Positions 3,498 through 31,131 of a DNA stretch of 32,125 bases are shown in pieces. The notes beneath the pieces are model-generated. The model saw only the letters and a list, made by a program, of their open reading frames with translations. It was not told the DNA's origin and made no database searches. Source of the stretch: a virus (taxonomy: Duplodnaviria; Heunggongvirae; Uroviricota; Caudoviricetes); the IMG/VR virus record IMGVR_UViG_2703718850_000013; one strand, 5' to 3'. Each line of letters starts with the position of its first letter. Position 1 is the stretch's first letter. A program made the position numbers and the translations under genes.

Positions 3498-4199
3498 TTA
3501 GCTGAACGAATAATCAGTATCAATATTTGTTTCACATAGCTCGTACTGAAATATGGCAGCTAGCTCTCTTTTAACACTTTCAAGATTTTCTGTAGCTGCA
3601 ATTACGTCCTCATGCTTGGGGCAATTAATATGTTTGCATATGGTCAATAGATATATATATTGATTGTCTAAATATGACTGCCTTAACTCTAATATATTTT
3701 TAAATAAATTTTCAAGCCGTTCGCTTAACTTAATATCAAACCTGGCTAGCATTGACCTTGTCGTATATAGCTTAGCAAGTTCAGATAAATCACTTGTGGC
3801 CTTTTTATTAATTTCAGCAGCAACTTTAGATTTTATTTCATCTGTCAGTTCTTTATTATCCTGAACATATTTCCTGATGGAAGCACGAACTATACCATCA
3901 TTATATAAACGTGAATTTATTTCCCATAACTGCATCTCAAATTTCATAGCCAACTGATGTGAGGTAGAAAGGGATTTTAATTTTTTATTCTGAACGAACC
4001 AATTATTTGCTACAAAAGCAGCACAAAGAGCTGTAGACGCAATCACGATATTGCATAACGCACTTGTTAAATCAGCTGCGTTCCCCCATTCAAACCCCCT
4101 GCTACCAGCGAATAGAACCTTAACGAGTACTAAGACTGCTAAAAACAGAAGTACTGCAACAATGCCGACAAGAGTAGAGTTTATAGTTTTTATATTCAT
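3498..4199 (-). CDS. 2TM membrane protein, paralog of 1777..2520
   Basis: Two N-terminal hydrophobic helices then a helical soluble domain; its ATG overlaps the upstream gene's TGA (ATGA at 4196-4199), implying coupling. Confidence 0.6.
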   Translation of the reverse strand: MNIKTINSTLVGIVAVLLFLAVLVLVKVLFAGSRGFEWGNAADLTSALCNIVIASTALCAAFVANNWFVQNKKLKSLSTSHQLAMKFEMQLWEINSRLYNDGIVRASIRKYVQDNKELTDEIKSKVAAEINKKATSDLSELAKLYTTRSMLARFDIKLSERLENLFKNILELRQSYLDNQYIYLLTICKHINCPKHEDVIAATENLESVKRELAAIFQYELCETNIDTDYSFS

Positions 4200-4747
4200 A
4201 ATTTATCAGCTATGTTAACTTCACTATAGAGCAAGCCTTTCAATTTCATCAAAGCTTCCCAAATTTCAGTTGGCTTACCGCTACAATTTCTAAGTAATAT
4301 TTCATCGTTTTCTTGTTTACTCAATGATGAATCATAAAACCGTGCTCCCAATTCTTCAAAATCATTTATAGCATTAGTAACCGTCCAAATCGCATCGTGA
4401 ATTTGTGGTGTCATGTATAATGTATAATCGAGAAGGAAGTCACTTGCTTTACTTTTAATTAAATCCTGTTTATAAAGCATAATTTGATCTAAAAGATCAC
4501 CATCATCATAAAAATTAAAATTTTCTGGAAGATTCAAAGAATTAATAAACTGAATGAAAGGTTTAATAGTTTGCTTTTTTTCTTTTAATTCATCTTCGAG
4601 TATTTTGAATAAAAGTTGTTTTTTTAGTTTTTCGTTCTCATATTTTTTAGTGATTAATTGGCTTGCCAATGTTACACCCGCAGCTATTAATGCACCGCCT
4701 AAAGTACCACCGACTGCAATGAGTTGTGTAATGGTTTCAGCTTCCAT
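4196..4747 (-). CDS. single-pass membrane protein (first gene of the putative four-gene operon; start re-chosen)
   Basis: One N-terminal TM helix (ITQLIAVGGTLGGALIAAGVTLA) then an about 150-aa soluble domain. The track start at 4771 is TTG; the ATG at 4745-4747 (MEAETITQ) is used here. No strong SD, so the start is uncertain. Confidence 0.5.
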   Translation of the reverse strand: MEAETITQLIAVGGTLGGALIAAGVTLASQLITKKYENEKLKKQLLFKILEDELKEKKQTIKPFIQFINSLNLPENFNFYDDGDLLDQIMLYKQDLIKSKASDFLLDYTLYMTPQIHDAIWTVTNAINDFEELGARFYDSSLSKQENDEILLRNCSGKPTEIWEALMKLKGLLYSEVNIADKL

Positions 4748-4818
4748 TTTTTTAGAAATCCAATATATCAAAGTGAAAAATGAACTTTACCATAATAACC
4801 ATTCTGGCGTAAACTATT

Positions 4819-4880: not shown

Positions 4881-4896
4881 GAACAGTTGGACTATG

Positions 4897-5024
4897 TTCT
4901 TATGTTCTTATGTTCTTATGTTCTTATGTTCTTATGTTCTTATGTTCTTATGTTCTTATGTTCTTATGTTCTTATGTTCTTATGTTCTTATGTTCTTATG
5001 TTCTTATGTTCTTATGTTCTTATG
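4897..5024. repeat. perfect tandem array, 16 x TTCTTATG (CATAAGAA on the minus strand)
   Basis: 128 nt of uninterrupted 8-nt periodicity read directly; intergenic between the HNH gene stop (5053) and the start of the 4747 operon. Confidence 0.95.
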
Positions 5025-5052: not shown

Positions 5053-5856
5053 TCATTTAGGATAACTAACACAAGTATGACCAGAAATTACCATCATAAA
5101 TTGATTATTCTTTAAACCTACAAAGGGAAATGAAGCATAATCAATATTAGCCGTTGTCATATTAAAATGAAGAGATTGATCATATTGAGTCATTTCAGTT
5201 GCATGAATAGGAAATGTTCCTTGCTCCTTCAGTGTAACCAAAAAAGATATTGGGAAAAAATGTAAGCAAGAACATATACTATGATGTCCATTATTGTAGA
5301 ATGTAACTGACTGAGCAGTAATTTGTTTTCTGAATGGATAAAACCAATAGTAAATATTATGAGTTGCCCCAATGTCTGGATTCCTGCCTAATACAAAATT
5401 TCTCAATGGAGTATAAAAAGGACTATCAACAATAGGCTTCATACAATCTTTTACTGAAGTTGCAGCCAGAAGGTGTCCAATCATTGCTCTTAGAAATTTA
5501 TCCGCATCAAATTTTAATGAAATATAATTTTTGTAAAAGAACTTACCACTAAAATAATCATTTAACTTTTCGATGAATTCAGTTGTAACACGGCCTATTT
5601 CTGCATCCATTGATCCTAAAATATTCGAGTTACAATTGTGACAAATGGTACGAAAAGTTGTCCCGCTTTTTGCTTTAATTGGTGGTACTCGAGTATTAGA
5701 GAAATACTCAGAAATCGTTTTTTGTAACATAGGTGAAGGTTTAGATGCACATTGCGGGGGAACATGGTCTTTTTTTAATTTGCCAAAATTACCACATATT
5801 ACACAATATCCATTAGCTATTTTTACATGGTCAATTCTTTCAGAGACAAATTTCAT
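5053..5856 (-). CDS. HNH-endonuclease-domain protein with about 200-aa C-terminal extension of unknown function
   Basis: N-terminal CVICG-x7-DHVPP ... TICHNCN matches the HNH zinc-finger/His-Me pattern (CxxCG...DH..P...CxxCN). Confidence 0.6.
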   Translation of the reverse strand: MKFVSERIDHVKIANGYCVICGNFGKLKKDHVPPQCASKPSPMLQKTISEYFSNTRVPPIKAKSGTTFRTICHNCNSNILGSMDAEIGRVTTEFIEKLNDYFSGKFFYKNYISLKFDADKFLRAMIGHLLAATSVKDCMKPIVDSPFYTPLRNFVLGRNPDIGATHNIYYWFYPFRKQITAQSVTFYNNGHHSICSCLHFFPISFLVTLKEQGTFPIHATEMTQYDQSLHFNMTTANIDYASFPFVGLKNNQFMMVISGHTCVSYPK

Positions 5857-7132: not shown

Positions 7133-7909
7133 TTATTTTATGGGTAAAATTTTCTTTATTTCATTTTCGGCGGCAAAATGATTGTTTAACTGCTCATAAT
7201 ATTTTGACATCATAACTGAATTTTTTAGACGCTGAATCTTATCTTTTTTCCATTGTGCGAGATAATAGGAACCTGAAAGTTGTTCTACAGCAGAGTAAAA
7301 ATATTCTTTAAGGGTAGAGCACCAAAAATAGTTAAAGCTAACAATATCTTTTTCAAGTTGATACGACTCAAAGACATAACCTGCATTGGCATTCCAATAT
7401 TTCATTATGCGAATAAGAGGCTTAATTAAATTGTTATTATTTTTATTGCAATTAGTTAAATCAGTATTGAACGCATTGGGATCGGTATTCATCCAACGGT
7501 TCAAAAAATCCTGGTTGGAAGGGATTTGATAACCAAATAAAATATTATGAGATGCAGGGACAAGCTCGAAAGTAATATGATTAAGGTTCAATTGAATAGT
7601 AGGGTGGCTTTGCTTTATTTCAGATGTACGATAGTAATAATTTACAAAACCCCTTAGCTTGTTTAGGTAGGTCTGAGGCTGATATATTACATTTTTGAAT
7701 ACAACCATATAATCAACATCAGAAGAAGGATCATAGCTACGAGGAAGCATTGTATTACGTGAATATGAGCCAAATACAAAATGACTAACAAGTTCACCAG
7801 CAAAATAACCATTCAGTCTGTTTTTTATGGTTGCAATTGAATTCGTTATTGTAATATCTCTTTGATAAGCATTGCTTTTAATAGACTCAAGATAGGTACT
7901 GACTGTCAT
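7133..7909 (-). CDS. pol-beta-type nucleotidyltransferase, SMODS/CD-NTase-like
   Basis: FGSYSRNT...SDVDY (hG[GS]-x9-13-DxD) plus a later acidic residue (FELVP); AAGGAA SD 6 nt upstream; start lies 2 nt after the upstream gene's stop. Confidence 0.6.
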   Translation of the reverse strand: MTVSTYLESIKSNAYQRDITITNSIATIKNRLNGYFAGELVSHFVFGSYSRNTMLPRSYDPSSDVDYMVVFKNVIYQPQTYLNKLRGFVNYYYRTSEIKQSHPTIQLNLNHITFELVPASHNILFGYQIPSNQDFLNRWMNTDPNAFNTDLTNCNKNNNNLIKPLIRIMKYWNANAGYVFESYQLEKDIVSFNYFWCSTLKEYFYSAVEQLSGSYYLAQWKKDKIQRLKNSVMMSKYYEQLNNHFAAENEIKKILPIK

Positions 7910-7911
7910 GT

Positions 7912-8415
7912 TTATTCCTTGTCAATATTATACTTAGTAAAGCCTTGGTTAACATCTCTTTGAGTTTTCTCATAAGCCCACCGAGGAATATTTGGCGAAC
8001 TTGAATTAAGTTGATTGCGTCGATCAGAGTAACTCGTAAGTTTTTCAATCAAAGTTTTATCAGTAAAATCAAAATTAGAAGTCAATATTTCCCTAAATAT
8101 TCTAACTTCATTCTTTAATTTATTATATTCATTTGCTGCTGATTTATGAAGTGCAGCACGCTTACTTGGGTTAAGAGACGTATTTAATGCAGTTAGAATT
8201 GTAGCAGTTATGGAAATAGCTACAACAGCATTGGCTGTACTCTTGATTGCGGCAATACCACTCAAAGCGGTTAAGATTGCTAATGGTACACCGAACCACA
8301 GATTCAGCTTATCCCATCTATCAGAAACATTATAATGAGATTTAGAAGAGTACAGAGCGTCCTCTTCTATACGATGACACTCAGAAATGACTGTTTGGAT
8401 GAGCTTCTGATTCAT
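7912..8415 (-). CDS. 2TM membrane protein, SLATT-like effector candidate (start re-chosen)
   Basis: About 40-aa N-terminal region, two TM helices (LWFGVPLAILTALSGIAAI; AVVAISITATILTAL), helical C-terminal region; tightly coupled to the nucleotidyltransferase gene. ATG at 8413-8415 has a GGAG SD; the track start is a GTG two codons upstream. Confidence 0.55.
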   Translation of the reverse strand: MNQKLIQTVISECHRIEEDALYSSKSHYNVSDRWDKLNLWFGVPLAILTALSGIAAIKSTANAVVAISITATILTALNTSLNPSKRAALHKSAANEYNKLKNEVRIFREILTSNFDFTDKTLIEKLTSYSDRRNQLNSSSPNIPRWAYEKTQRDVNQGFTKYNIDKE

Positions 8416-8579
8416 AAACACTCCAACAAATCCGATTCCCTAACAGTATAACATGGTAGGGTTAATAAATACTATAGGTACTTCCCTCTGAATAGACACA
8501 ATCGGGAAGTTTCGCCGCGAACTATTTTTTTTGCATATTAAATATTTTAAATAACACAAACAAAACCTGGATAAACAAA

Positions 8580-9101
8580 TTGAACGATAGATATACAACA
8601 AACGAAATTGCAGAACGTATGGGAGTTAATGACAGTACTGTAAGCCGTGAATGGGCAAAACGTGGAATGCCACACCCAAAGAAAGCAAGTAAAAAAGAAA
8701 TAGATCAATGGATACTAATTAATATTATCCAACCATTGCGAAATACTGATGTAAAAGAACAGATTGAAAAAGAGAAATTACGCAAGATATCACTTGAAGC
8801 AGATTTAGTTGAGATTGAATTAAATATCAGTACTGAAAAGGTATTGAGTACTGATTATGTAACTCAAACACTAACTGGTTATTTTGCAGCACTACGCGGA
8901 GTACTAAGAAGTATTCCGGCATCTATCTATGTAGAACTATTTGAAAGTGAAGATGCGGATACATTGCGGATAAAACTAGAAGAAAGGATTGATGAGAAAC
9001 TAAGGGAATTAGGATCATATGAGTACGAAGAACAGCCAGAAGAAGATGATGAAGATTCTGAACCAGAGTCTGAAATCAATATTACCCCCACCGAAGATTA
9101 A
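8580..9101 (+). CDS. terminase small subunit, lambda Nu1-like
   Basis: N-terminal HTH TNEIAERMGVNDSTVSREWAKRGMP resembles Nu1 (…IRTIQNWQEQGMP) and EKEKLRK resembles Nu1 ENEKLRR; acidic C-terminus. Track start is TTG with no clear SD, so the true start is uncertain. Confidence 0.6.
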   Translation: MNDRYTTNEIAERMGVNDSTVSREWAKRGMPHPKKASKKEIDQWILINIIQPLRNTDVKEQIEKEKLRKISLEADLVEIELNISTEKVLSTDYVTQTLTGYFAALRGVLRSIPASIYVELFESEDADTLRIKLEERIDEKLRELGSYEYEEQPEEDDEDSEPESEINITPTED

Positions 9102-10938
9102 ACCATCTGAATGGTGTGAACAATATACTGTATTTCCAGATGGACCACTGGCACAACAAAAAACTAAATTATTTTCATTTCAAGTAGAACCCCTAAACGC
9201 CACAGTAGATCCATCAGTACAGAAGATCTGTTTAATGAGTAGTGCACAATTACTCAAGACAACAATACTACAAAATGCAATGCTTTACAGGATGGCAAAT
9301 AAACCCTCCCATATGATATTTGCGGGTAGTAGTGGTAGTACTGTGAAAAAGTTCCGTACTGGTAAATGGATGGATACTATTAATGCGTGTCCAAACCTTC
9401 AAGCATTAATCACTGACAAATCAGATAAGAATGCAGTAAACGATCTACACACTCAACAGAACGTTGACGGTACTAAGACATACTTTGTTAACCTCAATTC
9501 TAGCCAGTCCCTACGCTCGCTTACAGTTCCTGCAATCTTCATTGATGAATTATCAGGTGTAGATCCAGAACAAGATGAGGGCAACCCCCTATCACTCATA
9601 GAACAGCGTGCAACTCAGTTTGGTAAGAACTCCCTGATCGTGATGGCCTCCACACCATTAGTACAGGACGATATGATCTGCCAGCAATGGGAACTCTCAG
9701 ACCAGAGACATTTTCATGTCGTGTGTCCACATTGTGATCATGACCATATTTTAGAATGGGAGAATATAAAGTTTGAATGGGTGAAGTTCAACGAACGACG
9801 TAATGCACCAGAACCCACTACAGCACGCCTACACTGTCCAGGATGTGATGAAGTAATCACTGAAGGGCAACGTGCACGGATGGTTGCAAAAGGTTACTGG
9901 AAAGCACACAGACTGCATGTGATGGGTTTCAGGGGATACCATGTTAATAGACTATATTCACCGATTACTACTATTGAGAAGATTGTTGAAGACTTTAAGA
10001 ACTCATGGATAAACTTTGAAGAACAATCTTTCTATAATAACGTACTCGGTTTACCGTGGGTAGATAAGAATAATATTAAAGAAGATCTTACAGTACTGGA
10101 AAACTTACGCGACTTTGATTTAGATGTAAAACATATTCCAGATAATGCACTTGGTATTGTACTGGCATGTGACCAACAGATAGACCGCTTAGAATGTAGT
10201 ACTATTGCATTTGATGAAAAGAATATATGGGTTCTGGACCACCGTATGTTTTATGGTGTCGATTGTACTAAGTATGAAGATAAGGCATATACTGAACTAC
10301 TTAATTATAGTAAGAGTATATTTAAAACCACTTCAGGTAGAAAAGTACCAGTACTGAGATCCTTTATTGATAGCTCAAACGGATCTGCAACCAGTTCCAT
10401 ATATCGCTTTTGTTCTTCCAGTGGGGGACGATGGCATGCAATTAAGGGTGCAAACACACAGACTGGTCCCATCACGAAGGATTCCACAACGGCAGGACAT
10501 CAACTGGTTAATATTAATACTCAAGTACTGAAGCACCAGGTTAAGAAGTTATTACGACAGGCATGTGAAGGGGGAGAGTATAGTACTAATATACACTTCA
10601 GTCATTCCCTTGTCGATGATTACTTCCTCCAACTTACAGCAGAAAAACTAGTACGAAAAGGTTCAGTGATGGTATGGGAGAATCCAAATGGAGAGCGTAA
10701 CGAATGTCTCGATACGCTCGTCTACTCATTAGCAGCGATTGATCACAAGATACAGGCACTTGGTGCACAACCGTATAGGAAGTTGCGAGAGTATAGAGCT
10801 AAACAAAAAGAACTAAATACTAAAGTAGAAGAATCCATAAAAACTAAAGCAGAACAACAACCAGTACAGAAAGAGAAGCAGAAATCAAAACCTAAGAAAA
10901 AAGGACTTTCAGCACTTAATAATCGTAACTGGTTTTAA
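9019..10938 (+). CDS. terminase large subunit, GpA-like
   Basis: 639 aa, immediately after TerS, with cysteine/histidine clusters (CPHCDHDH; CPGCDE); AGGA SD before ATG 9019; overlaps TerS by 83 nt (alternative ATGs at 9046/9049). Confidence 0.8.
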   Translation: MSTKNSQKKMMKILNQSLKSILPPPKIKPSEWCEQYTVFPDGPLAQQKTKLFSFQVEPLNATVDPSVQKICLMSSAQLLKTTILQNAMLYRMANKPSHMIFAGSSGSTVKKFRTGKWMDTINACPNLQALITDKSDKNAVNDLHTQQNVDGTKTYFVNLNSSQSLRSLTVPAIFIDELSGVDPEQDEGNPLSLIEQRATQFGKNSLIVMASTPLVQDDMICQQWELSDQRHFHVVCPHCDHDHILEWENIKFEWVKFNERRNAPEPTTARLHCPGCDEVITEGQRARMVAKGYWKAHRLHVMGFRGYHVNRLYSPITTIEKIVEDFKNSWINFEEQSFYNNVLGLPWVDKNNIKEDLTVLENLRDFDLDVKHIPDNALGIVLACDQQIDRLECSTIAFDEKNIWVLDHRMFYGVDCTKYEDKAYTELLNYSKSIFKTTSGRKVPVLRSFIDSSNGSATSSIYRFCSSSGGRWHAIKGANTQTGPITKDSTTAGHQLVNINTQVLKHQVKKLLRQACEGGEYSTNIHFSHSLVDDYFLQLTAEKLVRKGSVMVWENPNGERNECLDTLVYSLAAIDHKIQALGAQPYRKLREYRAKQKELNTKVEESIKTKAEQQPVQKEKQKSKPKKKGLSALNNRNWF

Positions 10939-10950
10939 TAAGGAATTAAT

Positions 10951-11427
10951 ATGAATCCACGTAAGACGGACTTAACTAGCCCGATCTTTATTGGTGAAAC
11001 TATAGTACTAGACTTCCCATCAACAGCAACGATTAAAATCATTGATGCAAAAGGTAATGAGCAAGAATACTTTCCAAATTTACCCATTGATACATCTCAA
11101 TGGGTAGCTGGTGTCAGTACTGCAATTATTAGCGATGGTAGTATGTCTGTACAACTTTTCACTGTTAAAGATCCACTTGAAGCAGCAAATAAAATAAATC
11201 AGTTACAGGAATTGATCGATGAAATTGATATGGTTATTGAATCCAAGATTCTTGGGGGTGGTACTACACAACTTACCATTAATAATAAAACACTAGTAAC
11301 AGAAAGTGCTGAAGTACTTTACCGTATGCGACAAGTATATGCAAAGAAACTTGCAGATGAAAAGGCACGTGTACGAAAAGTTAAGACGGGCAACCCCATC
11401 AAATCAATTACACGTTTTACAAGATAA
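10951..11427 (+). CDS. hypothetical head protein (158 aa) between terminase and portal
   Basis: ORF in the position lambda gives to W; no motif recognised. Confidence 0.45.
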   Translation: MNPRKTDLTSPIFIGETIVLDFPSTATIKIIDAKGNEQEYFPNLPIDTSQWVAGVSTAIISDGSMSVQLFTVKDPLEAANKINQLQELIDEIDMVIESKILGGGTTQLTINNKTLVTESAEVLYRMRQVYAKKLADEKARVRKVKTGNPIKSITRFTR

Positions 11428-11436
11428 GAGGGGAAT

Positions 11437-12429
11437 ATGTTTAATTTTAATTTTAGAAAGGCAAAGGAACAGCCAAAAGAAGAACCAAAACTATATATTG
11501 GTAAGGCAAAAATACGTACTGAACCAGTACTTGGTAATTTAGGTATTGAAACCAAACGTTCCATTTCTTCCATCGGTAACGGTAACGCAGCCGCACAACT
11601 TGGTACATTTGGTGCAGTTGGTAAGAGTGGCTCGATCAATGCCGTAATTAACCGTGTATTGAACACGGCAGTACTACAAAGTCGCCAGCTTAGTATGAGT
11701 AACCCAATTCATAAGAAGTATATTGCACAGAATGCCAGTAGTGTATGTGGTGCAAATGGTATTACGTATCGTCCATGTGTTCACGTTGCTGAAGATGACA
11801 ATGTTAATAATGATATTAATAAACGTCTCGCCGATGCGTTCTACTCATGGTGTGAAGACCCCGCACGTTTTTCCCTAAATGGAAAACTTGAAATGTCCAA
11901 ATTCCAGTCACTGGTAGAGAAGACACGTTCAATTGATGGTAGTTGTTTTATTCGTATCCATCCTGGTATGAAGATTGAAGTACTAGACAGTACTGTAATT
12001 GATACGAAAGGTAATCAATGGCTAAGTAATGGTAACTATCGTTCAAATGGTATTGAGTTTGAAAAAGGCACTGGTAAACCCGTTGCTTACTTTCTAACAC
12101 AATATGACCCCGTATCGTACTCAGTTAGTACTGAAGCAGAACGTGTACCCGCAGAAGAGATCCTTCACTTATTCAGTACTGACTATCCAGAACAGCAACG
12201 CGGCATTCCCGATATATTTTGCGGTACTGGACTACTGGCAGACCTGGATAAATTCATGAGGGCGTCAATCAAGACGCGACAATTAGCAGCGGAAAGCATG
12301 GGTTTTATCACGAATGCGTCACGTGATGCATCATTTGAAGATATTGATGATGATGACGATTCTGATGTAGATGAATACCAGGTTGCACGTATGGAGGGTG
12401 GAGTACTGTTAGAACTTCGTGAGGGTTAA
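11437..12429 (+). CDS. portal protein, N-terminal segment (ends at an in-frame TAA)
   Basis: Position after TerL; weak resemblance to lambda gpB from memory; followed in the same frame by 12433..12948. Confidence 0.6.
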   Translation: MFNFNFRKAKEQPKEEPKLYIGKAKIRTEPVLGNLGIETKRSISSIGNGNAAAQLGTFGAVGKSGSINAVINRVLNTAVLQSRQLSMSNPIHKKYIAQNASSVCGANGITYRPCVHVAEDDNVNNDINKRLADAFYSWCEDPARFSLNGKLEMSKFQSLVEKTRSIDGSCFIRIHPGMKIEVLDSTVIDTKGNQWLSNGNYRSNGIEFEKGTGKPVAYFLTQYDPVSYSVSTEAERVPAEEILHLFSTDYPEQQRGIPDIFCGTGLLADLDKFMRASIKTRQLAAESMGFITNASRDASFEDIDDDDDSDVDEYQVARMEGGVLLELREG

Positions 12430-12898
12430 GATGTGAAGTCACTCAGTCCATCACAAACATTCGACGCACTACAGGAATTTCTAGATAACCAGTTGATTTT
12501 CATAGGGATGTCACTCGATCTTACACCACAGACGTTAACAGGTTCGACCGCAGGGGCATCATTCAGTGCCTCGAAGTTAACAGACAAAATTCAGCAAAAT
12601 ACATTTCTTGCAAAACAAAACAACCTGGTTAAGTCAGTACTTCAACCTTTGTATATTAAGTGGCTCAAGAATGAAATGCTAAATAACCCGATGTTGAAGG
12701 ATTTGCCATTTAGTAAATTTACTGAACTAACTGAATGTAATTTCATTCCACAACGTCATATTAGTCTAGACCCACTGAAAGATTTACAGACTGAGATTCT
12801 CGCAATGGAAAATGGATTAAAGAGTAAAGAACAAATAATTTCTGAGATGGGCTATTCACCAGTACTAACCCATGAGCAGATTACTAAGGAAGAAACAG

Positions 12899-15014
<2,116 letters not shown>

Positions 15015-20556: not shown

Positions 20557-20847
20557 ATGGATCTATCTAATCTAATGACAGCAATTGGTGTCAAAAAACA
20601 TGCCTTTGAACTTGCTCCGGGGTTTACTGTTTATATTCGTCTTCCAGCTATTTCTAAGTATAGTGAATGTAGTGACCCGTACACTACAATCCATTACTGT
20701 GTAGTTGATGCCAATGGTAAACAACTTTTTAAATCACCAGAACAGGTAGAGAGCGAAATTGACATGGTTTATCAAATCAAACTTAATACCGAAATCACGC
20801 GTATTTTTACCGAAGCTATGAATATTGAAGAAATTGAAAAAAAGTAA
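20557..20847 (+). CDS. tail assembly chaperone (G-like)
   Basis: 96-aa ORF between the major tail and tape measure genes, ending in a slippery heptamer. Confidence 0.6.
   Translation: MDLSNLMTAIGVKKHAFELAPGFTVYIRLPAISKYSECSDPYTTIHYCVVDANGKQLFKSPEQVESEIDMVYQIKLNTEITRIFTEAMNIEEIEKK
20838..20844 (+). promoter_or_regulatory. -1 programmed ribosomal frameshift site A_AAA_AAG
   Basis: The heptamer sits in the X_XXY_YYZ register of the 20557 frame (codons GAA AAA AAG TAA); the -1 frame is open from 20838 through to the stop at 21170. Confidence 0.6.
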
Positions 20848-20879
20848 GGGGCGATCCGTTTCTTAAACTTTCTCTAAAA

Positions 20880-21170
20880 ATGCTGATGACAAAAGGGTGT
20901 GGTGTGGAAGATCTCTGCACCATGCCCTTTTCGCTTTTTATCTATCTATTTGTATATGACACTTTTGTAGAACCAAATTCTTCCAGAATTGAACAGGTAA
21001 GACATACCGAAATACTCCAGGCTATATGGCTCAGTACTGGGAATATTAAGAAGGAAGACTTAAAGAAATTCAGTATCACAGAATTGGATTCTCTTAATAT
21101 CATCAACAATAAGACCATTAAAGAACAAGCCGAAGAGAGAGAAACGGATCGCCGAAGAACAGAGAGCTAA
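20880..21170 (+). CDS. T-like extension, probably expressed as a G-T fusion by -1 frameshifting rather than from its own ATG
   Basis: In the -1 frame relative to 20557..20847, with that frame open upstream across the slippery site. Confidence 0.5.
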   Translation: MLMTKGCGVEDLCTMPFSLFIYLFVYDTFVEPNSSRIEQVRHTEILQAIWLSTGNIKKEDLKKFSITELDSLNIINNKTIKEQAEERETDRRRTES

Positions 21171-21199
21171 CATGTTAAACTGGATGGGAAGAAAATAAT

Positions 21200-23461
21200 A
21201 TGGCAGGGAATAAACAACAGATGATTTTTGAAATCACTGGTGATGAATCTGGGTTACAAAAATCTTTAAAAAGTGCTGGCAATGGACTTGCCGACTTTGG
21301 TGATCGTGCTGGTGGTGTATTTGGTGGTATTAGTGGTGGACTAAGCACAATGGCAACTGGTCTTGGTGGTGTTGGTAATGCGGCAACCTTGGCAATTACA
21401 GCTATTACAGCACTGACTACATATACAATTGGTCTTGCAAACGAGATCAACGCATTGACCCGTACAACCGGACTGAGTGCCGAGCAACTTCAGCAGTGGT
21501 CAGGAGCATTCAAAACCATAGGATTATCTATGGAAGAAGTTGGTTCGATTAACGAAGCAGTGATGGACCAGCTTGGTATTGCGTCTGCTGACGGTTCTGG
21601 TGTTGGTGCCGACTTAAAAACATTCGGCGTAGATGTAAATAGCCTAATACCGACATTAAAACAGGCAGATGGTGGTTTACAGGCATTGTCAAAAGTCTTT
21701 TTTGATATGAAAAAGAATGGTGCAAATCTTGCCGAAATAACAAATATGATCAACGCCCTCGGTGGTGATGCTGCAAAACTAATACCGACATTCAACTCTT
21801 TTAACAGTGAGATTGAATTTAATAACTCTCTTGCAGCCCAGAACGTAGCAATGACTAATGAACAGGCAAAAACATTTGATCTGTTAAGTCAGAATACTTC
21901 AGGTCTTGGTAGTGGACTGAAAACTCTTGCATTTGAAATTGTTACACCCCTCATTGATATTTTTAATGGACTCGTAAAAGCCTGTAAGGAAATATATCAA
22001 TGGTTTGACAACCTCAAAACAAAAGCAGTTGAGTTTATTAATTCATTCTTTAACTGGGATTCAAATAATACGATCATACAGTCGTTATACGATCAGGTAA
22101 TTAAATTCTATGACATGATCCGTAATGTAGGCTCAAAGATTGGCCTTGAATTACCCGAGTTTACACCAGAGCAAATAGCAAAAGGACGTAAACACGTACA
22201 GACAGCAGCCGATGCAGTTTTCTCACCACTAGGCCCAGGTATTGGTGGTCTTGCTGCCCTTGCCCGTGGATATTCTCAGGAAGACTATAAACCAACCACA
22301 AAGGCATATACAGGAACGACAAAAGAGCGTTCTAACTTTGATGATGGTAAAGCAGGGGAAGAAGCGAAAAAAGCCAGTGATAAGGCCGCAAAGGATCGTA
22401 TTCAGGCTGCCAAAGTACTGGAACAGACTATGAATGGTATTGCAGGTAATGGTGCTGCCCTCCAGCTACAGCAATTTAATAAGACCCAGGATGAAATAGA
22501 ACAACGCATTAAAACAAGTGCAACTACTCTCGGTAAAACTGAAGCTGAAAAGACTGAACTATTAAGAAAGCAGACTGATTCACGTAAACGCCTGTATAAA
22601 GAAATGGTTGATTCAATGCTCACCGAAAGTGACCCACTTAAACTTGCCCAGAATATTTCAGCAATTGGTGGTTCTATGTCAGGGAAAGACCTTAATTCAG
22701 TACTGGCAGGTCAAAACGAACGTATGGGACTTAATCAAGATCCATTCAATATGAGTGCCGATCAGAACACGCTCGATACATTAGCAACAGAAGGACAGGC
22801 CGAATTAGCACTGAATCAAAGTCTGTATGAACAGAAGTTATTAAGTTATCAGGATTACCAAGATCGCATGGTAGCAATTCAACAATCTACTACAGACAAA
22901 ATGAGTCAGGCTAATATTGATGCCCAGCAAAAGACACTTTCTATGTATGCAACGGGTGCTCAGGATCTCGGTACTACTCTTGCAGGTGTATTTGGTGAAA
23001 GTAATGCTATGGCAAAAGCTGCATTTGCAATGAGCAAAGGGATCGCAGTTGCCCAGTCTATTATCAATATTCAGCAGGGTATTTCAGAGGCTATGAAACT
23101 TGGATGGCCTATGGGGATTCCAGCAGGGCTTAAAGTAGCTGCCGAAGGTGCCAATATTGTCAGTACGATTAAGGGTACAAAGATTGAAGGGCAGGCACAT
23201 GATGGCTGGGACTCACTACCGAAGACTGGTACATATAATCTTGAAAAAGGTGAACGTGTTGTAGGTAAATCTCTGAACCAGGACTTGACACAGTACTTGA
23301 ATAATAAGGGTGGTGATAAAGGCGGTGATATTAAAATTGATGCCCCTTTAATTATTCAGGGTGCCGGAGAACTCACAGATTCAAAATTCCAGAGTATGTG
23401 TGATAAACACGCCGATACTATCACTCAGGCAGTACGTAAAAGCCAACAGAGGAACGTCTAA
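21200..23461 (+). CDS. tail tape measure protein
   Basis: 753 aa, Gly/Ala-rich hydrophobic segments near the N-terminus, long helical body, directly after the chaperone pair. Confidence 0.8.
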   Translation: MAGNKQQMIFEITGDESGLQKSLKSAGNGLADFGDRAGGVFGGISGGLSTMATGLGGVGNAATLAITAITALTTYTIGLANEINALTRTTGLSAEQLQQWSGAFKTIGLSMEEVGSINEAVMDQLGIASADGSGVGADLKTFGVDVNSLIPTLKQADGGLQALSKVFFDMKKNGANLAEITNMINALGGDAAKLIPTFNSFNSEIEFNNSLAAQNVAMTNEQAKTFDLLSQNTSGLGSGLKTLAFEIVTPLIDIFNGLVKACKEIYQWFDNLKTKAVEFINSFFNWDSNNTIIQSLYDQVIKFYDMIRNVGSKIGLELPEFTPEQIAKGRKHVQTAADAVFSPLGPGIGGLAALARGYSQEDYKPTTKAYTGTTKERSNFDDGKAGEEAKKASDKAAKDRIQAAKVLEQTMNGIAGNGAALQLQQFNKTQDEIEQRIKTSATTLGKTEAEKTELLRKQTDSRKRLYKEMVDSMLTESDPLKLAQNISAIGGSMSGKDLNSVLAGQNERMGLNQDPFNMSADQNTLDTLATEGQAELALNQSLYEQKLLSYQDYQDRMVAIQQSTTDKMSQANIDAQQKTLSMYATGAQDLGTTLAGVFGESNAMAKAAFAMSKGIAVAQSIINIQQGISEAMKLGWPMGIPAGLKVAAEGANIVSTIKGTKIEGQAHDGWDSLPKTGTYNLEKGERVVGKSLNQDLTQYLNNKGGDKGGDIKIDAPLIIQGAGELTDSKFQSMCDKHADTITQAVRKSQQRNV

Positions 23462-28985: not shown

Positions 28986-29010
28986 GGGGCATTAATGCCC
29001 CTTTTTATTT
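28986..29010. terminator. bidirectional intrinsic terminator GGGGCATTAATGCCCC + T-tract
   Basis: Perfect 16-bp palindrome flanked by an A-run upstream and a T-run downstream, between convergent genes; it overlaps the endolysin stop codon. Confidence 0.7.
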
Positions 29011-29451
29011 GTTAATTAAATCTTTAATCATCTGGTTAAGTCTATTCGGTGTCTGACGATACCATAAACTATCCTTTGCCTGTTTAATTGCTTCTGTGTA
29101 ATTATTGTTTAGTAATGCAATGATCATCTTTTTAAACTTCTTAGTACCACTTAAGCCTAACTGAAAAATCATGATAACCATGAAGTCTTCCCAGTCCTGT
29201 GGTAATTTCAAATTTAAGGTAGATAAATTACGTTTGGCAATGCCAATATCTTTATCCAGTAGTTTATCTGCTTCATCCTCGTTAATGCCGTTAGGGAACG
29301 TCTCAGAGGCTTTTAGAAGATGTCCATATCCAATCGTATCTTTGTTCTCACTACATTTATACACCCAGAATTTACCATTGCGATAATAACCCATATGGGC
29401 CTGGTATTCTTTCGTACCTTCATATATTTTTAATTTTTCTATTAAACACAT
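29005..29451 (-). CDS. endolysin, GH24 T4-lysozyme-like (start corrected)
   Basis: DTIGYGHLL and SLWYRQTPNRLNQMI align with T4 lysozyme TIGIGHLL and SRWYNQTPNRAKRVI; the ATG at 29449-29451 has a GAGG SD, whereas the track start at 29505 adds 18 residues with no counterpart. Confidence 0.85.
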   Translation of the reverse strand: MCLIEKLKIYEGTKEYQAHMGYYRNGKFWVYKCSENKDTIGYGHLLKASETFPNGINEDEADKLLDKDIGIAKRNLSTLNLKLPQDWEDFMVIMIFQLGLSGTKKFKKMIIALLNNNYTEAIKQAKDSLWYRQTPNRLNQMIKDLINK

Positions 29452-29487
29452 AAATACCTCATAAACTATTATTTGTGGGGTATTTAT

Positions 29488-29916
29488 ATGAAATGGACAA
29501 TGCATGATCCTGAGACATGGGATTATGAAGATATAAATGACGGGAGGTATGCAGCTTTTGTATATATGATCACTTTTGACGATGGTTCATATTATTTTGG
29601 TGTAAAGTCAATCTTCAAAAGTATTCGGGATGTAAAGAAGCTGAAGCCAACTACAAAGGAATCCAACTGGGAGAATTATTATTCTTCCTCGAAGAAGGTG
29701 CAGGCAATGGTTGATTCAGGCCTGAACTATGAAAAACAAATACTATGGTGTTTCAGAACGACGAATGAAGCTGAGCAAGTAGAAGCGGCATTGATTCTAT
29801 TCTTAGGACAGCAATCAAATAATTTAAATCTTGCCGTGATGTGCAAAGTACGGCTTGGTAAAAATCGTTCTGAAACATTCAAAGTACTGCAACAATTATT
29901 AGAGAGGTTATCATGA
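29488..29916 (+). CDS. hypothetical protein, possible stand-alone GIY-YIG nuclease domain
   Basis: FVY-x10-YFG then Arg, Glu and Asn at roughly GIY-YIG spacing; weak. Start set at ATG 29488 (track start 29473 is TTG). Confidence 0.35.
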   Translation: MKWTMHDPETWDYEDINDGRYAAFVYMITFDDGSYYFGVKSIFKSIRDVKKLKPTTKESNWENYYSSSKKVQAMVDSGLNYEKQILWCFRTTNEAEQVEAALILFLGQQSNNLNLAVMCKVRLGKNRSETFKVLQQLLERLS

Positions 29917-30837: not shown

Positions 30838-31131
30838 ATGATAAATGCAATATCCGTATTAATTAGTACAATAATGAGTGTTTTTACAAAGACAAAATTA
30901 ATTGAAAAAGAGGAACATAGAACTAACACTGAAGGACAGATTGAGACAAATAAAATTGAAATTGAGCAAAACACCTTTCACTGGAGAAACTTCCTTGGTT
31001 TTGTACTTTCCCTAATCATTTTATATAATTGGATAATTGTACCTGTTCTTGATGCGTTTGGTATTGTATTAATACAAGTTCCACTAGGTGAGCTACTACA
31101 GATACTTTTAATCATGGTGGGTGGTGGTTGA
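30838..31131 (+). CDS. small membrane protein, holin-like candidate (97 aa)
   Basis: AAGGAAA SD; two C-terminal hydrophobic helices (FLGFVLSLIILYNWIIVPVL; LLQILLIMVGG). Confidence 0.4.
   Translation: MINAISVLISTIMSVFTKTKLIEKEEHRTNTEGQIETNKIEIEQNTFHWRNFLGFVLSLIILYNWIIVPVLDAFGIVLIQVPLGELLQILLIMVGGG

What the first reader, a model, noticed from the sequence alone, without database searches (positions are those of the whole stretch)
12427..12435. Portal gene interrupted by a single in-frame TAA
Both portal segments are in the same reading frame and are separated only by TAA followed by GAT and GTG. The second segment resembles the lambda portal C-terminus, so this is one gene split by a stop. 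Possible explanations are a sequencing error, a genuine ochre mutation (defective or suppressor-dependent phage), stop-codon readthrough, or reinitiation producing a two-piece portal.
Basis: seen in the sequence. Interest (0 to 1): 0.65.

Follow-up and report, generated by a model that had tools for sequence, protein, structure and literature searches.

The report
Nonsense mutation in prophage portal gene
The portal gene of an E. coli prophage is cut in two by a single C-to-T change that turns an invariant glutamine codon into a stop; this is an ordinary inactivating mutation in a decaying prophage, not a new translation mechanism.

Summary
ORF 11437-12429 (330 aa) ends in TAA at 12427-12429. 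After GAT, the in-frame GTG at 12433 opens a 171-aa ORF. Together the two ORFs make one lambda-family portal protein (Pfam PF05136: 129 bits for the first piece, 162 bits merged).

The cause is a point mutation. The same prophage in E. coli N61 is 99.98% identical over 14.5 kb and reads CAA (Gln) where the window reads TAA. The intact 503-aa protein, identical apart from Q331, is on 39 contigs. Q331 is invariant in 20 homologues down to 35% identity.

It is not a sequencing error. The TAA allele recurs in at least four NCBI assemblies and in Logan read assemblies. It always travels with a second private lesion, a 2-bp deletion in the tail-chaperone gene, on copies that differ in the copy number of an 8-bp tandem repeat.

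Recoding is excluded: TAA ends 25 of 33 ORFs here and the window encodes no tRNA.

The stop aligns with the clip domain of lambda gpB. The 330-aa product therefore lacks the second stem helix, tunnel loop, inner wing and crown.

Reinitiation at GTG 12433, which has GAGGG 8 nt upstream, is possible. Nothing suggests that a two-piece portal would work.

Verdict: an ordinary pseudogene, of low interest.

The parts
11437..12948 (+). Complete portal gene (503 codons) of a lambda-family type, here interrupted at codon 331
   Evidence: Merged translation hits PF05136 positions 11-341 of 354 at E=3e-47. It is identical to the intact 503-aa protein P0022 except at Q331. The E. coli N61 annotation has one 1512-nt CDS, 'phage portal protein'.
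11437..12429 (+). N-terminal portal fragment ORF (330 aa): outer wing, first stem helix and most of the clip
   Evidence: Deposited as a separate 330-aa 'phage portal protein' in four NCBI assemblies. Domain mapping comes from the alignment to lambda gpB and the published gpB domain limits (PMC10721106).
12427..12429 (+). Ochre stop TAA, derived from CAA (Gln331) by a C-to-T transition at 12427
   Evidence: At window 12427 the base is T; it is C in L001 (E. coli N61) and in four E. albertii loci. Q331 is invariant in 20 homologues.
12433..12948 (+). C-terminal portal fragment ORF (171 aa from GTG): end of clip, second stem helix, tunnel loop, inner wing helix and crown
   Evidence: It aligns to lambda gpB residues about 339-483 and to 8gtd. 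It is deposited as a 'hypothetical protein' next to the 330-aa fragment in the same four assemblies.
12421..12425 (+). Shine-Dalgarno-like GAGGG, with 7 nt between it and GTG 12433 (GAGG core 8 nt upstream); it could support reinitiation, but it is simply the codons for Glu-Gly in the intact gene
   Evidence: Sequence read. The same bases are present in the intact N61 allele.
21134..21141 (+). Second lesion private to the TAA lineage: (AG)4 where every CAA-carrying copy has (AG)5. This 2-bp deletion rewrites the C-terminus of the gpT-like part of the tail assembly chaperone
   Evidence: The ORF is 96 aa in the window and 106 aa in L007, ending ...EERETDRRRTES* instead of ...EEREKRIAEEQRANMLNWMGRK*.

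Best explanation
A genuine single-base substitution (C to T at 12427, CAA Gln331 to TAA) arose recently in one lineage of an E. coli prophage. The prophage has lambda-type head genes and a siphovirus-type tail, and in strain N61 it sits next to yggS. The substitution ends portal translation after 330 of 503 residues, inside the clip domain. The main product therefore lacks the second stem helix, the tunnel loop, the inner wing helix and the crown, so it should not build a working dodecameric DNA channel. Without a portal there is no DNA packaging and no head-tail joining. This prophage copy should be unable to make infectious particles unless the host carries an ochre suppressor. What is shown: the mutation, its direction, its reproducibility, the conservation of the residue and the domain it falls in. 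What is inferred: the loss of function.
For: The N61 prophage differs from the window at only 3 positions in 14.5 kb, and one of them is 12427, C versus T. Four E. albertii copies (99.8% identical) also read CAA. The intact protein P0022 is identical to the window protein apart from Q331 and is seen on 39 contigs, against about 5-7 contigs for the truncated form. Q331 is invariant in 20 homologues of 35-100% identity, within the motif EL..GQD(I/V)K. TAA recurs in L002, L003 and L004, which come from different samples, and in four pairs of adjacent NCBI protein accessions. These copies differ from one another in the copy number of the 8-bp tandem repeat (16, 8 and 4 copies) and at SNP 13486. 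All TAA copies long enough to show it also carry a derived 2-bp deletion in the tail-chaperone gene. Other copies of the prophage carry their own lesions, namely an IS3 insertion in a tail gene in N61 and a frameshifted portal, P0024 plus P0036, so decay is common in this element. Q331 aligns to gpB D337, inside the lambda clip domain, residues 280-342 (PMC10721106). The AlphaFold secondary structure places helices 265-287 and 344-360 on either side of the site.
Against: Loss of function was not tested. GTG 12433 lies 3 nt after the stop with GAGGG upstream, so the C-terminal piece may also be made, and fragment complementation cannot be formally excluded. The host genome is not in the window, so an ochre suppressor tRNA cannot be excluded. 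The structure model has low confidence in the clip region (pLDDT below 50 for residues 279-331), so the domain assignment rests on the alignment to lambda gpB.
Confidence: 0.9

Rival explanations
1. Sequencing or assembly error: the true base at 12427 is C and the gene is intact.
For: It is a single-base difference from a 99.98% identical relative.
Against: The same T is present in L002 (GCA_900480535.1), L003 (GCA_017721715.1) and L004 (Logan ERR1100463). The exact 330-aa and 171-aa products are deposited as adjacent genes in four NCBI assemblies. The allele co-segregates with a second private change, (AG)4, and sits on copies that differ in tandem-repeat copy number.
Confidence: 0.02
2. Termination followed by reinitiation at GTG 12433 makes a two-piece portal (330 aa plus 171 aa) that assembles non-covalently and still works.
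For: The GTG is 3 nt after the stop, and GAGGG lies upstream at a workable spacing. The break falls in the clip domain between two stem helices. In principle a break at such a domain edge could be tolerated (inference).
Against: None of the 20 homologues, and no other contig in the 90% cluster, has a split at this position. The SD-like bases and the GTG are just the codons for E-G and V in the intact gene, and that V is I in many homologues, so nothing has evolved for reinitiation. The residue lost is invariant. The TAA copies are 99.99-100% identical to each other, so the change is recent and has not been tested by selection. The same lineage carries a second lesion.
Confidence: 0.05
3. Programmed stop-codon readthrough, a reassigned TAA, or suppressor-dependent expression yields a full-length portal.
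For: The downstream frame is fully open and intact. The host genome could not be examined for suppressor tRNAs.
Against: TAA terminates 25 of the 33 main ORFs in the window. The window encodes no tRNA. The stop is absent from all relatives. From general knowledge, the stop is followed by G, and UAAG is an efficient terminator in E. coli, while known bacterial and phage readthrough cases use UGA.
Confidence: 0.03

Closest known systems
Classical nonsense (amber or ochre) mutants of phage portal genes, such as lambda B amber mutants (from general knowledge)
   Same: A single stop codon inside a lambda-family portal gene. The expected phenotype is no functional portal, and hence no packaging, unless a suppressor tRNA is present.
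   Different: This one arose naturally in a resident prophage and is inherited in a bacterial lineage. It is ochre rather than amber, and nothing shows it is conditionally rescued.
Point-mutational decay of cryptic or defective prophages in Enterobacteriaceae (from general knowledge)
   Same: Different copies of the same prophage carry different inactivating lesions. These are the ochre stop plus a 2-bp deletion in the window lineage, IS3 in a tail gene in N61, and a frameshifted portal in another strain.
   Different: The element is still nearly full length and most copies keep an intact portal (39 contigs), so this is very early decay rather than an old remnant.
Lambda portal protein gpB (PDB 8k38; PMC10721106)
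   Same: Same Pfam family (PF05136). The alignment covers gpB residues 261-483. The gene lies after a gpA-type large terminase gene and a head-tail joining gene, and before the head protease and capsid gene.
   Different: The similarity is distant (E=0.0055 by phmmer). The best match among isolated phages is below 30% amino-acid identity. The capsid gene here is a protease/scaffold-capsid fusion.

Membership tests
Lambda-family phage portal protein (Pfam PF05136, Phage_portal_2) | Sequence match to the family profile above the curated gathering score | tested here: met
   129 bits for the 330-aa piece and 162 bits for the merged sequence, against a cut-off of 32.9.
Lambda-family phage portal protein (Pfam PF05136, Phage_portal_2) | One continuous polypeptide spanning wing, stem, clip, stem, wing and crown | tested here: not met
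   The window copy is interrupted at codon 331, inside the clip. Relatives have single chains of 476-514 aa.
Lambda-family phage portal protein (Pfam PF05136, Phage_portal_2) | Position in the head module, between the large terminase gene and the head protease/capsid gene | tested here: met
   The gpA-type TerL gene is at 9019..10938, the head-tail joining gene at 10951..11427, the portal gene next, and the protease-capsid fusion at 12872..14713.
Lambda-family phage portal protein (Pfam PF05136, Phage_portal_2) | Assembly into a dodecameric ring at one capsid vertex | not testable with these tools
   Needs protein expression and electron microscopy. The monomer model has low confidence (pLDDT 56.8).
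Pseudogene by nonsense point mutation | Close relatives carry a sense codon at the same position and differ by one base | tested here: met
   CAA in L001 and L005-L008; TAA in the window and L002-L004.
Pseudogene by nonsense point mutation | The allele is real, that is, reproducible in independent assemblies | tested here: met
   Seven contigs from several samples and four pairs of NCBI accessions. The copies differ in tandem-repeat copy number.
Pseudogene by nonsense point mutation | Loss of the protein's function | not testable with these tools
   Inferred from the invariance of Q331 and from the loss of stem helix 2, tunnel loop, inner wing and crown.
Programmed stop-codon readthrough or stop-codon reassignment | The in-frame stop is conserved among relatives | tested here: not met
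   All 20 homologues and every CAA-carrying locus have Gln at this position.
Programmed stop-codon readthrough or stop-codon reassignment | The codon is not used as the ordinary terminator in the same genome | tested here: not met
   25 of the 33 main ORFs in the window end in TAA.
Programmed stop-codon readthrough or stop-codon reassignment | A cognate suppressor tRNA is available | tested here: inconclusive
   The window encodes no tRNA. The host chromosome was not available.
Naturally split (two-gene) protein | The split is conserved, and the downstream piece has its own evolved start signal | tested here: not met
   The split is found only in one near-clonal lineage. The GTG and GAGGG are ordinary sense codons of the intact allele.

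The most novel reading that the evidence does not exclude
The ribosome terminates at TAA and restarts at GTG 12433. The two portal fragments, split at the edge of the clip domain, then co-assemble into a functional ring, which would be a naturally occurring two-piece portal.
Probability: 0.03. Interest if true: 0.5.

Novelty: already known. Interest (0 to 1): 0.08.

Why it matters
It matters little beyond annotation. The two ORFs should be annotated as one portal pseudogene with an internal stop, and this prophage copy should be scored as probably defective. The case is a clean, dated example of early prophage decay: two private lesions on an otherwise 99.98% identical element whose other copies carry different lesions. 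It is also a reminder that an in-frame stop in a phage gene should be checked against near-identical relatives before recoding is proposed.

Tried and rejected
A megablast search of the portal region against 50,697 phage records found nothing. The exact-pattern scan of genome contigs for either allele also found nothing, so the species-representative genomes do not carry this prophage.

The AlphaFold model, built on only 19 sequences, was too uncertain around the clip (pLDDT below 50 for residues 279-345) for a fold search. Domain mapping was done instead through the phmmer alignment to lambda gpB and the published domain limits.

A literature search for premature stops in prophage portal genes returned nothing specific to this element.

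The other same-frame neighbouring ORF pairs, with stops at 11425 and 15450, were checked and are simply adjacent genes.

Full report
**Observation.** The sequence at 12418-12438 reads CGT GAG GGT TAA GAT GTG AAG. ORF 11437..12429 (330 aa) and ORF 12433..12948 (171 aa) are in the same frame and are separated only by TAA and GAT. The first ORF matches Pfam PF05136 (Phage_portal_2, lambda family) over profile positions 11-290 of 354 at 129 bits. The second ORF alone gives no Pfam hit. When the two are joined, the match extends to position 341 and rises to 162 bits. tblastn against phage records gives single alignments that cross the stop and cover up to 92% of the joined protein, for example Wolbachia phage WO, Roseobacter phages and S-CBS3, all below 30% identity. 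phmmer against PDB chains aligns residues 258-472 with lambda gpB (8k38) and residues 167-473 with another portal (8gtd), again straight across the stop. In detail: this is one portal gene cut by one stop.

**Cause.** A search of 5.8 billion proteins returned a 503-aa E. albertii portal at 99% identity with Gln at position 331. The only complete E. coli genome with this DNA is strain N61 (NZ_AP028880.1). There the portal is annotated as one 1512-nt CDS, inside a prophage that lies next to yggS and begins with a large recombinase-family gene.
- The window and N61 differ at only three positions across 14,520 aligned bases. One of them is window 12427, T versus C, that is TAA versus CAA.
- Four E. 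albertii copies, about 99.8% identical, also read CAA.
- The cluster look-up shows an E. coli protein, P0022, identical to the window's joined translation except for Q331. It is on 39 contigs.
- In an alignment of 20 homologues at 35-100% identity, Q331 is one of the invariant columns, within the motif EL..GQD(I/V)K.

The ancestral state is therefore CAA. The window carries a derived C-to-T transition that creates an ochre codon at an invariant residue.

**Not a sequencing error.** The exact 330-aa product is encoded on seven contigs from several samples. Three were fetched: L002 from GCA_900480535.1, L003 from GCA_017721715.1 and L004 from the Logan assembly of ERR1100463. All three read TAA and are 99.99-100% identical to the window. 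The 330-aa and 171-aa products are deposited under adjacent accession numbers in four NCBI assemblies. The TAA copies are not all the same sequence. They carry 16, 8 and 4 copies of an 8-bp tandem repeat at 4893-5020, and the window has a private synonymous change at 13486.

**Not recoding or programmed readthrough.**
- TAA is the terminator of 25 of the 33 main ORFs in the window, and TGA ends the other 8.
- The window has no tRNA gene.
- The stop is absent from every relative.
- The base after the stop is G. From general knowledge, UAAG is an efficient termination signal in E. coli.

**Consequence for the protein.** Q331 aligns with D337 of lambda gpB. In the published lambda structure the clip domain is residues 280-342, the stem is 250-279 and 343-367, the wing is 24-249 and 368-452, and the crown is 453-511 (PMC10721106). 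The stop therefore falls near the C-terminal edge of the clip.

An AlphaFold model of the intact E. albertii protein is poor overall (pLDDT 56.8) and disordered in the clip. Its secondary structure nevertheless agrees with this mapping: helix 265-287, an unstructured stretch containing residue 331, helix 344-360, a loop, the long helix 379-416, then short C-terminal helices.

The 330-aa product keeps the outer wing, the first stem helix and most of the clip. It lacks the second stem helix, the tunnel loop, the inner wing helix and the crown, which together form half of the channel wall. I infer that it cannot form a working portal. This was not tested.

**Reinitiation.** GTG 12433 lies 3 nt past the stop, and GAGGG at 12421-12425 is a plausible ribosome-binding site. 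Some synthesis of the 171-aa piece is therefore mechanically plausible. However, these bases are simply the Glu-Gly and Val codons of the intact allele, and the Val is Ile in many homologues. No relative is split here. The TAA lineage is too young for selection to have acted on it.

**Context supports decay.** The window is the late region of a siphovirus-type prophage. Its genes in order are:
- a putative small terminase gene, a gpA-type large terminase gene and a head-tail joining gene;
- the portal gene and a protease/scaffold-capsid fusion gene;
- tail genes, major tail protein, a G/GT-type chaperone pair and the tape measure;
- a gpJ-like tip fibre gene, then lysozyme and holin genes.

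All TAA copies that reach far enough also share a second derived lesion. They have (AG)4 at 21134-21141 where every CAA copy has (AG)5. This 2-bp deletion replaces the last 18 residues of the gpT-like ORF with 8 unrelated ones and separates its stop from the tape-measure start.

Other copies of the element have their own lesions. N61 has IS3 inserted in the large tail gene. Another E. coli strain has a frameshifted portal, 396 aa plus 90 aa. The element is evidently being eroded independently in different hosts, although most copies still have an intact portal.

**Comparison and verdict.** This is a natural counterpart of the classical nonsense mutants of phage portal genes, and a routine case of prophage pseudogenisation. 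It belongs to the lambda portal family by sequence and by gene order, but it fails the 'single continuous chain' feature because of the mutation. It fails every tested criterion for programmed readthrough, codon reassignment or an evolved split gene. Novelty: already known kind. Interest: low. The one non-trivial reading left open is a functional two-piece portal by termination-reinitiation. I put that at about 3%.

Noticed in passing
window 20557-21200: ORF 20557..20847 ends GAA AAA AAG TAA. This contains an A_AAA_AAG slippery heptamer, and the -1 frame is open from there into ORF 20880..21170, the arrangement of the lambda G/GT tail-chaperone programmed frameshift. In the window lineage a 2-bp deletion, (AG)4 at 21134-21141 against (AG)5 elsewhere, rewrites the C-terminus of the T part and uncouples it from the tape-measure start at 21200.
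   Followed up: partly
window 4893-5020: There is a perfect 8-bp tandem repeat, TATGTTCT x16, in the intergenic space between two minus-strand ORFs (4196..4771 and 5053..5856). Copy number is hypervariable between otherwise near-identical prophage copies: 16 in the window, 8 in L002, 5 in N61, 4 in L003 and fewer than 3 in E. albertii. It may be a phase-variable spacer or promoter element; its function is unknown.
   Followed up: partly
window 7133-8421 (- strand): A SMODS nucleotidyltransferase (7133..7909) and a SLATT-type two-transmembrane effector (7912..8421) form a pair just upstream of the terminase genes. It looks like a minimal CBASS-like defence cassette carried by the prophage.
   Followed up: no
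window 12872-14713: The 613-aa head gene is a fusion. The N-terminal ~320 residues match 'major head and protease' and head maturation protease PHROGs. The C-terminal part, residues 348-609, is an HK97-type Phage_capsid domain. The gene overlaps the end of the portal gene by about 50-77 nt.
   Followed up: no
window 29005-29916: A GIY-YIG SegE-like homing endonuclease ORF (29473..29916) lies beside, and slightly overlaps, a minus-strand phage lysozyme gene (29005..29505). A GTA-type 3-TM holin-like ORF follows at 30838..31131.
   Followed up: no
whole window; L001 (NZ_AP028880.1 791837-823348): No sequenced isolated phage resembles this prophage at the DNA level, and the best portal match among phage records is below 30% amino-acid identity. 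In E. coli N61 the element sits next to yggS, begins with a large recombinase-family gene and carries an IS3 insertion in the 964-aa tail gene. It also occurs in E. albertii at 99.8% identity.
   Followed up: partly
protein cluster of the portal (P0024 + P0036): A different E. coli assembly (HBJ0965570.1 and HBJ0965569.1) carries an independent disruption of the same portal gene. A frameshift near residue 394 gives 396-aa and 90-aa pieces.
   Followed up: partly
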